Assembly: GCF_006345805.1 (NCBI RefSeq)
Contig: NW_021835798.1
Span: forward strand, 1-38,061
Length of the DNA stretch: 38,061 nucleotides
Direction of reading: 5' to 3'
DNA from: Octopus sinensis
Taxonomy: Eukaryota
Shown: positions 28,659 through 35,830 of the stretch, in pieces
Layout: each line of letters opens with the position of its first letter
How positions within the stretch are numbered: position 1 is the stretch's first letter
Translations under genes and position numbers: made by a program
Notes under the pieces: model-generated
What the model saw: only the letters and a program-made list of their open reading frames with translations
Database searches by the model: none
What the model was told of the DNA's origin: nothing

Positions 28659-30621
28659 TCACAGATGCGTTAGTTTAGGTATGTAGGAATAGGTATCATG
28701 ATGAAGTTCGTGAGCGCTGGGTATACCGCACGCCCCCAACTGGGACGTGTGAGTCAGCTGATAGTGTATACCGCCGCTAGCGTCCTCCAGTAGCGAACCA
28801 GTAATGTAAGGGGAATTGGATCCGGTCACATGATGCAACAGGTGTGAGTTCATGTAAGCGTGGGGCGAACCCACATTTGGAGGCTGAGGAGATGATGATG
28901 ACGATGTTTGATGATGGTGATGATGGTGTGGATGAGGTTGCTGTTGTTGGTGATGTTGTTGTTGTTGTTGTTGATGGTGTTGTTGATGCTGATGTGGCTG
29001 GTGGTGATGTTGTTGTTGTTGTTGTTGATGGTGTTGTTGATGCTGATGTTGCTGGTGGTGATGTTGTTGTTGTTGTTGCTGATGATGGTGTTGCTGCTGT
29101 TGCATATGGTGGTGTTGTTGCTGTTGTTGTTGTTGTTGATGCTGTTGATGATGATGATGCTGTTGTTGTCGTTGTTGTTGTTGCTGCTGCTGTTGGTGAG
29201 GATGGTGAGGCACGTACGTTGTGAGCGGCGGCGGTGGCGGCGGCGGGTGCGACGGATGGTGCGGGGGAGGTGGCTGCTGCTGCTGCTGGGCGTGGTGTTG
29301 CGGAGGCATCGCCGACCCCGCGGCAGTCGCCGCGTGGTGAGCGACCGCGGCGGCCGGGTGATGTTGCGTGATCGAATGATGAGAAGAGGGCGGGGGAGGT
29401 GGCGGTGGCGGCGGCACCAACGCTGCCGCTGCTGCTTGGTGGTGCTGTTGGTGGGCCCCGGGTTCGGTTACCGGCGGCGACATTGAGCACGCCGCCGGAC
29501 CTAAAAGTTGTAGACTTCCTCCTAGACAGTTCCCGTTGGTCAAAGCCACGCCCCCACCCCCGTTGCTATTATTGTTGCTGTTGTTGTTGTTATTGGCATT
29601 ACTGTTACTACCATTGGTATGATTGTTGTTGTTGTTGTTGATGTTATTACTATCATTGTTATCAACATCCTTGACGTCATCACTACTTCCATCATCACCA
29701 CCACCTCCACCACCATCGCCACCAGGTGTGATATGGCCGTTGTTGTTATTGTTGTTGTTGTTGTTGTTATTGTTTGTGTGTGTGGAGAGGAGGAGAGTGT
29801 CTTTGATGTGTTGCGACGGGGTCGACGTCGTAGACGACAACGACGACGAAGACGTGGTAGACGATGCGGACGATGACGAAGAGGAGGCGGATGCGGACGA
29901 CGAGGTGGACGATGAAGACGACGAGGACGAAGAGGAGGAGGATGAGGAGGACGAGGAAGAGATGGTGGTGGTTATGGTGGTGATGGTCGGCGTCATAGAA
30001 CAGTACAGGCCGGGCGTGCCGCTTCGTCCACCCACCACCACCACCACCACCCGCCGCCGCCGCCGCCAACACCGCCGCCTCCTCCGTTCATTCCTGGAGG
30101 CGGCGGTCCGAGATTTCCTAGATTGTGCGTCGCAGCACCTGTCGTCGTCGTCGTCATCATCATAAGCCCTCCTCTCGGCGACGGCGTCGCGGATTGAGGA
30201 CGGTACGGCGATATCGCCGAGCCGCCCATGACCACATCATCTGGCGCGACGGTAGCGCCAGCACCGTTCATTTTACCAAGTCGTTCTAGACTTTTCATGG
30301 AACTCTGACTATCCGAATCCGAGTTCATGTTGGTGAGACAGTCGGAAGATTTGGCACTACCGCTGCCGCTGCCGTTGCTGCTGTTGCTGCTGTTGTTGCC
30401 AGACTTGTCCATATTCACCTTCATCTTTTTTTCTTTCTTGAACTTCATCCGACGATTTTGAAACCAGATTTTAATCTGACGTTCGGAGAGGTTCAGAAGA
30501 GCTGCCATCTCAATTCTTCGAGGCCTACAAAGGTACTGGTTGAAATGAAACTCTTTCTCCAATTCGACAAGTTGGGCGCTCGTATATGCAGTTCGGGCAC
30601 GTTTCGCTGGCTGTTCACATT
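28659..30621 (-). CDS. Hox3: Hox3 last coding exon (homeodomain plus long low-complexity C-terminus), with a one-base frameshift near 30051
   Basis: Polypyrimidine acceptor TTTCTTTTCCCTTTTCCTTCTATTCAACAG ends at 30622. Then [63 protein letters not shown], with paralogue-group-3 diagnostics [13 protein letters not shown] and LCRPRR. The downstream frame 28659-30050 ends in PKLTHL*, the conserved Hox3 C-terminus. Confidence 0.93.
30428..30607 (-). other. Hox3: Homeobox (60 codons) of Hox3
   Basis: AKRARTAY...[13 protein letters not shown] read manually; Q50 and N51 are intact. Confidence 0.96.
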
Positions 30622-30725
30622 CTGTTGAATAGAAGGAAAAGGGAAAAGAAATAATTAGGATCCAAAAATAAAATTACAATTTTAATTTTCATGATTACAT
30701 TACGATGAAATAATTGAAACAATGA

Positions 30726-30773
<48 letters not shown>

Positions 30774-30784
30774 AAAGTAAAAAA

Positions 30785-30905
30785 ATATATACAAACTGGG
30801 ACAAGAACGTGAAACACCTAGAAGACGACACAAGAAACACAGGACGGGACATTCGAAGCCCTCAATCATCAGTCAAGAACCGGATCATCTTCGCAATTTC
30901 GGCTG
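30785..30905. repeat. Dispersed repeat with a second copy at ~24848-24960
   Basis: Shared ATACAAA.TGGGACAAGAACG..GAAGCC.T.AATC.TCAGTCAAGAACCGGATCATC.TCGCAATTTC.GCT. Confidence 0.75.
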
Positions 30906-31206
30906 ATTAATCTTGAGATTGCTCCGATCTGGGCAGCCCCCAAGGGAAATCTAAGCCAAGCGCATTAGATCCCTTGGAAGAAAGCCTCGAATGTATACAA
31001 AACAAGGAGGGAAAAACGGACGATGTACACGAATAAAAATACAAAAATACGTGAAAACAATAAAGAAAGCACGAATAAGAATACAAATACGTAAAAACAA
31101 TAATGGTAAGGATAAAAACAAAACCAGGACGTCAGGACAAGGGTCTTTCGACAGGACGAGTTGAGTTTGGGGCTGGCTAGTGGAAGAGTGCCTTATATAT
31201 ATATAC

Positions 31207-31404
31207 ATAGGGAGAGTTTACGAAAAAGGAAAAAAAGACGAAGACAAGTGGTGTACGAAACAAACAGATGTATTAGTATAACGCTCAGGAATAGAAAAAG
31301 TCTTTTACGTTTCGAGCCTACGCTCTTCTACAGAAAGGGACACAGAAAAAACAAAGAGAGAAACAAGGAGAGAAAAAATGTGTGTAGTGGCTAACGATCT
31401 ATCG
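31207..31404 (-). mobile_element. Dispersed repeat with minimal hammerhead-like motif, probable Penelope-like terminus
   Basis: Minus strand CUUU-CUGUAGAA-GAGC-GUAG-GCUC-GAAAC-GUA-AAAG at ~31303-31337. Homologous to 12767-12945. Confidence 0.6.
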
Positions 31405-31690
31405 TATGTATGTATGTATGTATGTATATCATCATCATTATTGTTCGACCGTGGTCGAGACTTTCATAGTCTTTTCAAATGGCTAATAATGTGTGCGTGC
31501 GCCACTACTACACACATTGGAAAGCATTGTACAACCAAGTACTAAAGAAGATCTTTCCTCCTCCATGAAACAAAGCTGTTCCCGCTGGACGTCAACCCAG
31601 TATTTCTAAGCTACGGACCGAGTGATTTATTGTAAGATTATCTCCCTAGATAGATTGCCTTCACTACGGCTAAGGAGCCCTTTCTACCCC

Positions 31691-31728
<38 letters not shown>

Positions 31729-31977
31729 GTATATATATAAATTATTATAATTAGGGCTTAGCAAAATTGCTTCACTACATACCGAAATTTAGAAATAGTA
31801 GTTAACTACTATTCTAATACCATAAGATGTCTTCCAGACAGCTGTCTGGAATTATAATTATGTTTATAGTTATGATAGTTTTTGTATAAGTTTACCAATA
31901 ATGGTTCTTTTAACATACAGAACTACTTGGTAAGATTATCAATTATAAATTGATTAATCAATTTTACCCTTTATTAT

Positions 31978-32008
<31 letters not shown>

Positions 32009-32720
32009 GAATGTACGTATGTATACACACACATATGGAGACAGTAAGTCTATAATACAAACAAGATCAAATACAAAAAACAACCAAAGTTCAAGGGACG
32101 TTCAAATTTATTATTATATCGTTGATGTTCAAAGCTATAAACAAAAAGTTATAGAGTGAAAGCATAACGTTTCGGACATAGTCCTTCGTCGGAAACAAGG
32201 AGAAATTCAAGGAAAGGCGGTAAGACGATAGGAAAAGCGAAAAGAGACCCAGGAGAAAAAAAACGCACATGGATAACGTTCACATGATCGACCCATGAGT
32301 AACCGGAAGTGTGAGAAGTAATATACACATACATTCTCTCTCTCTCTCTTTTTAATTATTATTATCCTTACATGATTTACATACATAAACATACCTACAT
32401 ACATACATACATACATACATACATACATACACACATACATACATACATACAAAAATGCACACGCATATACATGCGTAGAAACACGACTGACTGCTACTAT
32501 AATAAATGCGAAAACTAATTTCTGTGTTTCAGTGTGTCACACTTTGACCTCCCTCCCTCACTATTCAATGACACTTCTACTATCGCTCATGCTGGGGTGA
32601 GAGTAACAGTAAGCATAGAGGCGGTAGTGGTGGTGGCGAAGACAGAGGCAAAGAAATTTAGGGAGAGTTGATGTTTTATTAAAAGTAGTAGTGTTGATGG
32701 TGGCAGTGGGAGTAATAATA

Positions 32721-32772
<52 letters not shown>

Positions 32773-33652
32773 GGTATGTGAGAGAAAGAGGGACTGAACA
32801 CTGAATCAACATACTGAACGAACACACTGAACACTGATGGTAATGGGGTGATATTAATAGTATGAGCTGTATTGTCATAGAGGCAGAGGCGGCGGTGATG
32901 ATGGTGGTGGTAGCCGAGGCAGTCCGGGATGATGGTGAGAGTAAGCGATGTGAAAGACAGTGGTGGTGGTGGTGGTCGAGGGAAAGGCGACGAAGTCAAA
33001 AGTATTGATGGTGGTGGCCTCAGAAGTGTGAATGCTGTGTGTATGGCAGATGAAGTGGCGATGGTGGTGATACTGTTATCATGCAGCTTTACAATACTTC
33101 TCGGTTGACAAATTATATCATTGTTTTGATGAAAATTGTTCATTGCTTGAAAAATATTGTTCAAGTTTAATAAACTTTAATATTAACTCAATGCATGACG
33201 CGTCATTGTTGGGCCGAAGATCTAATGAAGAGCCCTCAACCGGAGCTATCTTAAACGCCGCCCCTATCTGGCGGCTTTTAAGATAGTTTAACATAATTCT
33301 CGAGTAAAAATCAGCGTGACACAGCGTGTAACAAGGCTGTATATGTGAATTACTGGTACAATCCAGCTGACGGGCTTCTATTAGAGATTGTCTGTCTACC
33401 CAATTTCAACTGACAAAGAATGGGTCTATCCAAGGCTATATAAAAATAGCATCTGCTCAAGATGTTATGCAGTGGGATCGAAACCGGCACCTGGTGATAG
33501 TGGAGGGAATTTTTGAACCAATCGACTATACGGTACCTAAAATGCACACACATGAATGCTCCGCCCAACTCATATATAGCAATCAAGAAAAGGCTGCATT
33601 TTATGTACATATAAAATATATATGCATGCATGTATATATATATATATATATC

Positions 33653-33687
<35 letters not shown>

Positions 33688-33919
33688 TTATATGCACACA
33701 CGTATATGTGTATAATCACTATAAATCTTTAAGTGGGTTCAATTGAACAGAACACTAGCGATAGTATCGAATCGAATTTATAAAACATGCTTAACCTCTC
33801 CACCTACACACCACCATAATACACACATACACGCACACACAAACATAAGCATTCATATATATATATATATACATGCACAAGCCACCATAATCACCGCCAC
33901 CGCTGCTGCGCGCCCTCCT

Positions 33920-34135
33920 CCCATGATAACCAGGTCGTTATCATCATCAATGACCCGCCGGGCGCTGTTCTGACTGTTATAGGCTATCGTTGCCTCGACA
34001 GTGTTATCAGATCAATAAACTATGTCCGTTATCTGCAGTTATCTCCCTGCAAATCAGTCGTTATTGATTGGCGGGTAATATAAATTCTTATTAACGGCGC
34101 GATAACATCTTACTGTCATCTCATTTGATAGAGAC
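33920..34135. promoter_or_regulatory. Candidate intronic enhancer (GATA-site cluster)
   Basis: Non-repetitive island with six WGATAR sites, TGACAG (minus, 34113-34118) and TGATTGG (34065-34071). Motif evidence only. Confidence 0.35.
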
Positions 34136-34580
34136 AAAAGAAAGGCGCATGTGTTGTGCATCCACCCATCCGTCCATCCACCCATCTATACAGATCAATC
34201 ACACACACACTCACTCATACATGTTTATGTATGTACAAACACATTGATGCATGCATATATACACGCGTCTCTATGTTAATGTACTACTACTACTACTACT
34301 ACTACTACTACGACTACTACTTCTACTACTGCTGCTAATACTTCTACTACTGCTACTACTACTACTGCTACTGCTGCTACTACTTCTACTACTACTACGA
34401 CTACTACTTCTACTACTACTACTGCTGCTAATACTTCTACAACTACTACTACTACTAATAATAATAATAATACCACTACTACTACTAATAATAATATGCG
34501 CACGCGCTTATATGTATATGCATACACATATACACACGTTCATACATGCATAGCTATATTAATATATATTTGTTTAAAAA

Positions 34581-34805
34581 AGGCGGCGAGCTGGCAGAAA
34601 CGTTAGCACGCCAAGCGAAATACATAGCCGTATTTCGTCTGCCGCCACGTTCTGGGTTCAAATTCCGCCGATGTCGACTTTGCCTGTCATCATTTCAGGG
34701 TCGATTTAAATAAGTACAAGTTACGCACTGGGGTCCATATAATCGACATACTACGCTTGTCTGTCCTTGTTGGTCCCTTCTGTGTTTAGTGGGTAGTAAA
34801 GAAAT
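34581..34805 (+). mobile_element. tRNA-derived SINE, family D
   Basis: GGCGGCGAGCTGGCAGAAACGTTAG..GGTTCAAATTCC, followed by GTCGACTTTGCCTGTCATCATTTCAGGGTCGAT..TAAGTAC, which resembles a Meta/MESC-type central domain (from recollection). Confidence 0.8.
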
Positions 34806-34859
<54 letters not shown>

Positions 34860-35310
34860 ATTAAACTAATAGCCTAGCATATTGAAAAAAAATTTGAAGA
34901 TTCAGAAAAATTATATTATATACATACAAGAGGGATGACCACTAATTAGACATCCAATATGCTAGATGCAGACCGCATATGATCTGACCACTAAGAAAAG
35001 ATTGTGTCTCAAGAAAATTCAGCAAACGCATCTTATATATATATATAATACAAATAAGAAAATGGAGAAACAAATTTAGTTGGTTCATCAACTTTCGGAT
35101 ATTAGAATGTTGGATTATTTATTCATTTAACAAAATGAGAACCTTAATAGCATACATATATATCTTATAATTCAATACATATAAGATAAGAATACAAATT
35201 ATAAAAATCATAATATAAATTATTGAAATCATTAAAATCACTTTTTACAGCTATCCCATAGTGGGTTACACCCATAACCCCTATCTTACTCTGCATATAT
35301 ATGTATATAG

Positions 35311-35691
35311 TGGAGGAGCAATGGCCCAGTGGTTAGGGCAGCGGACTCGCGGTCATAGGATCGCGATTTCGATTCCCAGACCGGGCGTTGTGAGTGTTTA
35401 TTGAGCGAAAACACCTAAAAGCTCCACGAGGCTCCGGCAGGGGATGGTGGTGATCCCTGCTGTACTCTTTCACCCACAATCTTCTCTCACTCTTACTTCC
35501 TGTTTCTGTTGTACCTGTATTTCAAAGGGCCGGCCTGTCACTCTCTGTGTCACGCTGAATATCCCCGAGAACTACGTTAAGGGTACACGTGCCTGTGGAG
35601 TGCTCAGCCAGTTACACGTTAATTTCACGAGCAGGTTCCATTGATTCGGATCAACCGGACCCTCATCGTCGTAACCGACGGAGTGCTTCCA
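35311..35691 (+). mobile_element. tRNA(Arg)-like SINE, family B, alternative 3' tail
   Basis: A box TGGCCCAGTGG, anticodon-like loop CTCGC, B-box-like TTCGATTCCC. Body shared with 900-1205. Confidence 0.85.
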
Positions 35692-35830
35692 TATATATAT
35701 ATATATATATATATACATACATACACACACCTCACAAAACATCGTTCTATGTTTACTCTAACTTGTAAAGGTTTATATTTTATATTAATCGACATTTTCA
35801 TGTTTCAGATTCTATACGTAACTCTTTAAT

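What the first reader, a model, noticed from the sequence alone, without database searches (positions are those of the whole stretch)
28659..30070. Hox3 exon is broken by a one-base frameshift, but the out-of-frame 463 codons end in the conserved PKLTHL motif
Seen: the homeodomain frame runs GGGGGG then WWWWWW to a stop at 29993. A second frame stays open from 30050 to 28659 and ends ..YIPKLTHL*. The minus-strand junction reads GGC GGC GG GTG GTG. Adding one base, or removing the two extra Gs flanking (GGT)6, joins the frames into ~654 codons. Known: vertebrate HOXA3/B3/D3 end in PKLTHL. Inference: the second frame is the true C-terminus. The break is most likely an assembly error in a GC-rich repeat, less likely a real truncating allele or recoding site. 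An automated annotation would truncate or miss this gene.
Basis: partly seen in the sequence, partly recalled or inferred. Interest (0 to 1): 0.72.

Follow-up and report, generated by a model that had tools for sequence, protein, structure and literature searches.

The report
Octopus Hox3 with assembly frameshift error
This is an ordinary Hox3 body-patterning gene, probably of an octopus, whose reading frame is broken at a G-rich repeat in the assembled genome, most likely by a sequencing error rather than by a real mutation or a special translation trick.

Summary
Observation confirmed. The homeobox exon of a single-copy Hox3 gene runs in one frame to a stop at 29993-29995; another frame ends [10 protein letters not shown] at 28659. 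That frame is the true C-terminus: an unnamed relative (P0001) with an identical homeodomain carries both halves in one frame, and 14 of 15 named mollusc relatives end Y[IVM]PKLTHL. The break lies in 30086-29996, where a glycine-codon repeat is out of register twice, (GGC)5-G-(GGT)6-G-GGT; any repair of both slips rejoins the frames. Contigs of seven public runs match the upstream flank without gaps. The junction letters themselves could not be read, because the read tool skips this repeat. Indirectly, two runs' contigs stop exactly where an in-register repeat would merge with 120 other genomic copies, whereas the window's version is unique. No splice signal or slippery heptamer fits. Verdict: most likely an assembly error (about 0.88); a real null allele is about 0.07, recoding or a fixed truncation about 0.03. 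The scan held no earlier Hox3 note; unchecked notes report similar slips in this assembly. Low interest: an annotation fix.

The parts
30622..30655 (-). Polypyrimidine tract and AG splice acceptor of exon 2 (AG at 30623-30622; phase-1 intron inferred)
   Evidence: Sequence; P0001 similarity starts at the same point
30428..30607 (-). Hox3 homeodomain, 60 residues
   Evidence: Pfam PF00046 E 1.3e-22; 60/60 to P0001, 53-57/60 to named invertebrate Hox3, 36-45/60 to other classes
30087..30427 (-). Post-homeodomain linker in the homeodomain frame
   Evidence: P0001 aligns in this frame down to 30170; contigs of 7 of 7 runs laid match 30087-30349 with 0 differences and 0 gaps
30027..30085 (-). Glycine-codon repeat GGA/GGC/GGT holding the break; the joint-highest 70-base GC window of the contig (0.80) overlaps it
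30050..30052 (-). First register slip: G run between (GGC)5 and (GGT)6
   Evidence: in the genome this form occurs 7 times against 716 for the in-register form
30031..30033 (-). Second register slip: G run after (GGT)6
   Evidence: Sequence; not tested by any read-based evidence
29993..29995 (-). Premature TGA in the homeodomain frame as assembled (likely an artefact of the slips)
28662..30030 (-). True C-terminal coding region: Ser, Asn, Pro, Gln and His tracts between conserved blocks
   Evidence: tblastn of P0001 hits this frame at 29951-29202 and 29030-28662; contigs of 4 of 4 runs match within 29230-29732
28659..28901 (-). Conserved C-terminal block ending [10 protein letters not shown] and TGA
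   Evidence: Y, Y, P, K, L, T, H, L invariant in 7 of 7 aligned sequences

Best explanation
This is exon 2 of an ordinary, single-copy Hox3 gene whose assembled sequence is out of frame at a glycine-codon repeat, most likely because the assembly consensus slipped at two short G runs. In the animal the repeat is likely an unbroken run of GGN codons, so the mRNA would be read in one frame from the homeodomain through poly-Gly, Ser, Asn, Gln and His tracts to [10 protein letters not shown], giving a normal Hox3 transcription factor with about 650 residues from this exon. Shown: the two frames, their orthology, the 91-base interval of the break, the two slips. Inferred: the true letters at the junction, that they are errors, and the cause (indel-prone consensus in a G-rich repeat where short-read polishing would be weak; the sequencing method of this assembly is not known to me).
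For: (1) P0001 has an identical homeodomain and aligns to the first frame down to 30170 and to the second from 29951, in one open frame. (2) 14 of 15 named mollusc proteins printed end Y[IVM]PKLTHL; the exception is a hypothetical Pinctada model. (3) Contigs of 7 of 7 runs (five studies, two organism labels) match 30087-30349 without gaps, which with the stop confines the break to 30086-29996. (4) Each slip is one base off triplet register, so restoring register at both rejoins the frames whichever way it is done (arithmetic). (5) The extra-G join occurs 7 times in the genome against 716 in-register joins. (6) Contigs of X1 and X8 end 48 letters past 30087. A 31-letter assembly graph would break exactly there if real molecules carried the in-register 30-mer, which has 120 copies in this genome; the window's own 30-mer at that place is unique and predicts no break. 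(7) Both sides have similar contig depth in the same runs (21/25, 24/26, 27/29, 33/36). (8) The downstream frame carries no second break over 463 repeat-rich codons, and the one gap seen in a run is 3 bases (X13): no sign of decay.
Against: No read or contig letter across the junction was seen: the tool skipped the repeat in both calls. The contig-end argument is indirect, speaks only to the first slip, assumes the other repeat copies were present in those runs, and fits 2 of 7 runs as tested; ends at 45 (2 runs) and 37 (2 runs) were not tested against the genome, and X10 runs on for 549 letters that are not accounted for. Enrichment of the extra-G form on small contigs is weak (5 of 7 against 33 of 120, Fisher p 0.025; without this locus 4 of 6, p 0.06; the two patterns differ in length), and 2 of the 7 lie on chromosome-scale contigs. 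The rest of the contig looks accurate (663-codon intact frame at 2027-4015). PMC8574707 (passages) reports G/C errors mostly as deletions in GC-rich genomes, so 'two inserted Gs' is only one of the possible forms.
Confidence: 0.88

Rival explanations
1. A real frameshift allele in the sequenced animal (repeat slippage, probably heterozygous), encoding a truncated Hox3 with a homeodomain but no C-terminal region; as the last exon it would likely escape nonsense-mediated decay.
For: The junction letters were not checked in reads of that animal. Triplet repeats mutate often (general knowledge). The same extra-G join exists at 6 other places, 2 on chromosome-scale contigs.
Against: Needs two separate non-triplet changes 19 bases apart, whereas slippage in triplet repeats normally moves by 3 (general knowledge; the one gap seen in a run is 3 bases). 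No decay downstream. It is compatible with, and so not excluded by, the contig-end evidence from other individuals.
Confidence: 0.07
2. The sequence is fixed in the species and the C-terminus is reached by programmed ribosomal frameshifting or transcriptional slippage on the G runs.
For: The C-terminal frame is conserved and intact while out of frame as assembled.
Against: No X XXY YYZ slippery heptamer in 30120-29990. The relative P0001 needs no shift. Contig ends in X1 and X8 point to in-register molecules. A-to-I editing of the TGA would not help: the same frame stops again at 29974.
Confidence: 0.02
3. A small intron is spliced out across the junction and restores the frame.
For: GT dinucleotides at 30050-30035 with the AG at 30023-30022 would remove 14-29 bases of the right phase.
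Against: All 11 GT sites in 30095-29990 lack the GTRAG donor consensus; the AG has no pyrimidine tract; such introns are below the usual spliceosomal minimum (general knowledge); upstream donors are excluded by gap-free contigs over 30087-30349 in six probably spliced runs.
Confidence: 0.02
4. The assembly has lost a longer piece (about 200 bases or more) in or next to the repeat, not just one or two bases; still an artefact, but a different repair.
For: The X10 contig carries 549 letters beyond 30087 although the next X10 contig starts near 29778, leaving at least about 210 letters unplaced.
Against: One run of seven; a mis-join through a common repeat word explains it equally well; P0001 has fewer, not more, residues across this region.
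Confidence: 0.05

Closest known systems
Molluscan Hox3 (paralogy group 3), e.g. Nucula tumidula and Antalis entalis 'homeobox hox 3' (P0056, P0071), Patella vulgata HOX3 (P0037)
   Same: Homeodomain 54-57/60 identical; C-terminal YxY[IV]PKLTHL
   Different: Post-homeodomain region about 580-590 residues once joined, against 189-239 in the full-length named molluscs, through long homopolymeric tracts
Unnamed relatives P0001 (ENA, 402 aa) and P0121 (Logan, 187 aa); cephalopod-like by inference, no organism given
   Same: Homeodomain 60/60, shared linker blocks, last 28 residues nearly identical
   Different: One open frame; no poly-Gly tract at this place; far shorter Gln/His/Ser tracts
Octopus vulgaris Hox3 (PMC10509229, passages and part 1 of 2 of the supplement; accession OR250459 listed, sequence not seen)
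   Same: Hox3 orthology; expressed in embryos (funnel, mantle rim, arm pillars)
   Different: Its sequence could not be compared here
Gene-breaking indel errors in long-read assemblies (PMC8574707, passages)
   Same: Single-base indels in homopolymer runs that truncate predicted proteins
   Different: Paper covers microbes and parasites and finds G/C errors mainly as deletions; the method behind this assembly was not established
Vertebrate HOXA3/B3/D3
   Same: End in PKLTHL (e.g. P0093, P0099, P0069); homeodomain 51-53/60
   Different: Pfam PF13293, listed for many vertebrate hits, does not match the window's C-terminal frame

Membership tests
Hox3 / paralogy group 3 | ANTP-class homeodomain closest to Hox3 | tested here: met
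   53-60/60 to Hox3-like invertebrate proteins, 51-53/60 to vertebrate group 3, 36-43/60 to other named classes, 36-45/60 to seven other homeodomains of this genome; identity only, no tree built
Hox3 / paralogy group 3 | Conserved C-terminal PKLTHL | tested here: met
   Present in the second frame; 63 of 120 search hits end in PKL plus 2-3 residues; 27 of 44 single-homeodomain proteins at 54/60 or more end in a KLxxL-type motif, the misses being mostly arthropod-type ends
Hox3 / paralogy group 3 | Hexapeptide (YPWM) in an upstream exon | tested here: inconclusive
   No PWM in any frame of the 38-kb contig; bivalve exon 1 found nothing credible in the genome (best E 7.9); six runs' contigs go 242-611 letters past the acceptor, letters not seen
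Hox3 / paralogy group 3 | Position in the Hox cluster between Hox1/2 and Hox4/5 | not testable with these tools
   The window is a whole 38,061-base contig with no other homeobox hit
Hox3 / paralogy group 3 | One continuous reading frame from homeodomain to C-terminus | tested here: inconclusive
   Not met as assembled; met in P0001; junction letters unread in other runs
Programmed -1 ribosomal frameshift site | Slippery heptamer X XXY YYZ upstream of the stop | tested here: not met
   None in 30120-29990
Programmed -1 ribosomal frameshift site | Downstream stimulatory RNA structure and conserved split frames in relatives | tested here: not met
   Relative has a single frame; structure was not folded
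Spliceosomal intron | GTRAG donor, pyrimidine tract and AG, sufficient length | tested here: not met
   by inspection of all GT and AG sites; no splice-site model was run
Assembly indel artefact | Independent accurate reads disagree with the assembly at the site | tested here: inconclusive
   Repeat skipped by the read tool; indirect support from contig ends and word counts
Pseudogene / decaying copy | Further lesions, or an intact second copy elsewhere | tested here: not met
   Single copy; no second lesion in 463 codons; flanks identical in other runs

The most novel reading that the evidence does not exclude
The letters are real: this octopus lineage carries a Hox3 whose homeodomain and conserved C-terminus are in different frames, so it makes a truncated Hox3 by default and reaches the PKLTHL end only by slippage on a G-rich repeat, a first case of recoding or a tolerated null in a core Hox gene.
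Probability: 0.04. Interest if true: 0.7.

Novelty: not a real feature. Interest (0 to 1): 0.1.

Why it matters
Practical only. Hox3 was once listed as missing from an octopus genome (PMC5831810, passage on O. bimaculoides) and later shown to be expressed in O. vulgaris embryos (PMC10509229). Here the gene sits on a small contig without its first exon and with a broken frame, and no close protein product turned up in the searches, so the locus is a likely source of false absence or truncation in comparative work. The corrected exon would show a large repeat-driven expansion of the Hox3 C-terminal region. If the break were real it would be a rare Hox null or recoding case, but the evidence points away from that.

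Tried and rejected
Read laying twice (7 of the 24 runs listed, X10 in both): the repeat holding the junction was skipped, so no direct letters; no contig was shown in two pieces across it, so no length difference could be measured. All listed runs are contigs, no raw reads. Share of words (highest 0.94; no run reaches 1.0) does not discriminate. Protein searches for an octopus Hox3 across the junction: none among 7,959 candidates, 3,966 longer candidates or 190 candidates of 114-364 residues; representative search gave 4 hits, 2 of them junk repeats by inspection or not examined (P0124 read, P0122 and P0123 not read); exact look-up negative. These searches are length- and candidate-limited. 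Sliding the switch point against P0001 gave a flat score from 30100 downwards, so the orthologue alone does not place the break more finely than 30170-29951. Exon 1 search failed. Supplement of PMC10509229: part 1 of 2 read, accession numbers only; part 2 not read. PMC9068888 has no 'Hox' in its main text; PMC4795812 not held. Literature search for the motif KLTHL gave 5 papers, none on Hox by title; three octopus-Hox searches and one search listed no paper on this frameshift, judged from listings only. Stop-codon editing and a third-frame product (stop at 29769) rejected. No structure or complex prediction was run; it would not bear on the question.

Full report
What is there. The window is a whole 38,061-base contig (C12269) of a 2.72-Gb genome in 13,516 pieces. 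On the minus strand a pyrimidine tract and AG at 30623-30622 open an exon whose first frame encodes a homeodomain (30607-30428; Pfam PF00046, E 1.3e-22) and a linker, then [24 protein letters not shown] and TGA at 29995-29993. A second frame is stop-free from 30236 to TGA at 28661-28659 and ends [10 protein letters not shown]. Joining needs +1 or -2 bases and gives 653-654 codons including the stop.

It is Hox3 and the second frame is its C-terminus. The homeodomain is 60/60 identical to an unnamed ENA protein, P0001, 53-57/60 to named invertebrate Hox3 proteins, 51-53/60 to vertebrate group 3 and 36-45/60 to other classes and to seven other homeodomains of this genome (identity only, no tree). 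P0001 holds both halves in one frame: tblastn places its residues 13-145 on the first frame (30634-30170, 76%) and residues 137-350 and 290-402 on the second (29951-29202; 29030-28662, 60%). A second unnamed protein, P0121, matches the last 80 residues at 74%. Of 15 named mollusc proteins printed, 14 end Y[IVM]PKLTHL; 63 of all 120 proteins then held end in PKL plus 2-3 residues. The final YxYxPKLTHL is invariant in 7 of 7 aligned sequences. The 3' end is single-copy in the genome, as is the homeodomain, so this is not a spare copy.

Where the break is. Public contigs from 7 of 7 runs laid (of 24 listed; five studies, two organism labels) match 30087-30349 with no difference and no gap. With the stop, this confines the break to 30086-29996. 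Inside lies a glycine-codon repeat, GGA GGA GGC GGC GGT GTT (GGC)5 G (GGT)6 G GGT GGA, overlapping the joint-highest 70-base GC window of the contig (0.80). It is out of triplet register at two G runs (30052-30050, 30033-30031). Each slip is one base off, so any repair that restores register at both sites, by removing one base or adding two, shifts the total by the amount needed. The W6 in frame one and V6 in frame two are what a poly-Gly tract reads out of frame; the third frame reads (GGT)6 as G6.

Error or real? The direct test failed: the read tool skipped the repeat in both calls, and only contigs, no raw reads, were on offer. Indirect evidence follows. First, in this genome (GGC)4(GGT)4 occurs 716 times and the form with an extra G 7 times. 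Five of the 7 are on small contigs, against 33 of 120 for a 30-letter in-register pattern: Fisher p 0.025, or 0.06 without this locus, weak support. Second, the contigs end 48 (X1, X8), 45 (X3, X5), 37 (X6, X13) and 549 (X10) letters past 30087. Assuming these are built from 31-letter words (the index uses 31-letter words, tool text; the assembly word size is recalled), a contig ends where the next word is shared with other loci. The window's 30-mer at letters 19-48 is unique, so the window's letters give no reason to stop at 48. The in-register 30-mer at the same place has 120 copies, which predicts a stop exactly there, as seen in two runs from two studies and two organism labels. This speaks to the first slip only; the ends at 45 and 37 were not tested against the genome, and the X10 tail is unexplained (mis-join, or a longer piece missing from the assembly). 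Third, nothing downstream has decayed: contigs of 4 of 4 runs match within 29230-29732 with one substitution (X10) and one 3-base gap (X13), at depths close to those upstream. Six of the seven upstream contigs run 242-611 letters past the acceptor, beyond a 32-base AT run at which X6 stops, so they are probably spliced transcripts (inference); both halves thus appear to be transcribed.

Mechanism of the artefact (inferred). Single-base indels in homopolymer runs that truncate predicted proteins are a documented error of long-read assemblies (PMC8574707, passages; it found G/C errors mainly as deletions in GC-rich genomes, so the direction here is open). GGC motifs trigger Illumina errors (recalled; PMC3141275 seen only as a listing), which would weaken polishing at this spot. 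The method used for this assembly was not established. Against an error: the rest of the contig is clean, including a 663-codon frame at 2027-4015.

Rivals. A real allele in the sequenced animal cannot be excluded without its reads, but needs two non-triplet changes in a triplet repeat (0.07). Recoding lacks a slippery heptamer and is not needed by the relative (0.02); editing the stop leads to another stop at 29974. An intron lacks a donor consensus at all 11 GT sites and a pyrimidine tract (0.02). A larger assembly loss is a variant of the artefact reading (0.05, overlapping with it).

What is known. O. vulgaris Hox3 is expressed in embryos (PMC10509229, passages and part 1 of 2 of the supplement; the sequence was not seen and part 2 was not read). 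A 2016 review lists Hox3 as not found in the first O. bimaculoides assembly (PMC5831810, passage). The argonaut has nine Hox genes, lacking Hox2 and Hox4, three without gene models (PMC9635652, passages); coleoid Hox clusters are spread over megabases (PMC6962438, passages), which fits a lone exon on a small contig. No close octopus product was found in three word-based searches and one profile-free HMMER search, within their length and candidate limits. The scan's notes hold nothing on this gene and several unchecked reports of consensus slips in this assembly.

Verdict. A known gene, correctly spotted, with a probable assembly error. Useful as an annotation fix, not new biology. Interest 0.1.

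Noticed in passing
window 2027-4015 +: Uninterrupted 663-codon frame for an M12B/ADAMTS-like zinc metalloprotease (Pfam Reprolysin E 3.5e-10, ADAMTS_CR_2 E 3e-16), apparently intronless, 25 kb from Hox3: a non-Hox neighbour.
   Followed up: partly
window 30624-38061: No exon 1 (no PWM in any frame) in the 7.4 kb upstream; the intron runs off the contig, and a bivalve exon 1 did not find it elsewhere in the genome.
   Followed up: partly
window 28900-29990 -: Large expansion of Ser, Asn, Pro, Gln and His tracts relative to P0001 (post-homeodomain about 580-590 against 326 residues), including a near-duplicated Gln/His block at about 29060-28945.
   Followed up: no
run X10, contig of 1,695 letters: Carries 549 letters beyond 30087 that cannot all be collinear with the window; mis-join or extra sequence, unresolved.
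   Followed up: partly
L004 and L005 (G000:C7:52.99-53.28 Mb): Two homeoboxes 288 kb apart on one strand that look like Xlox and Gsx (labels recalled, not tested): a ParaHox pair.
   Followed up: no
L006, L007, L011: Lox5-like, Hox1-like and Lox2-like homeoboxes (labels recalled); the first two also lie on small contigs of 57-60 kb.
   Followed up: no
L008, L009, L010, L012: Four divergent Antp-class homeoboxes (59-63% to the query) on non-chromosome contigs, two with unusual RxRTCYS starts; class not determined.
   Followed up: no
window 14185-15650: About 1.4-kb TACA/TGCA tetranucleotide array that gives long spurious open frames in all six frames.
   Followed up: no
window 6160-6763, 7284-8067, 35964-36845: Short frames that look like Tc1/mariner transposase remnants by eye (recalled resemblance, not tested).
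   Followed up: no
window 28144-27411 -: First AATAAA/ATTAAA words start about 515 bases after the Hox3 stop; common in AT-rich DNA, so only candidates for the poly(A) signal.
   Followed up: no
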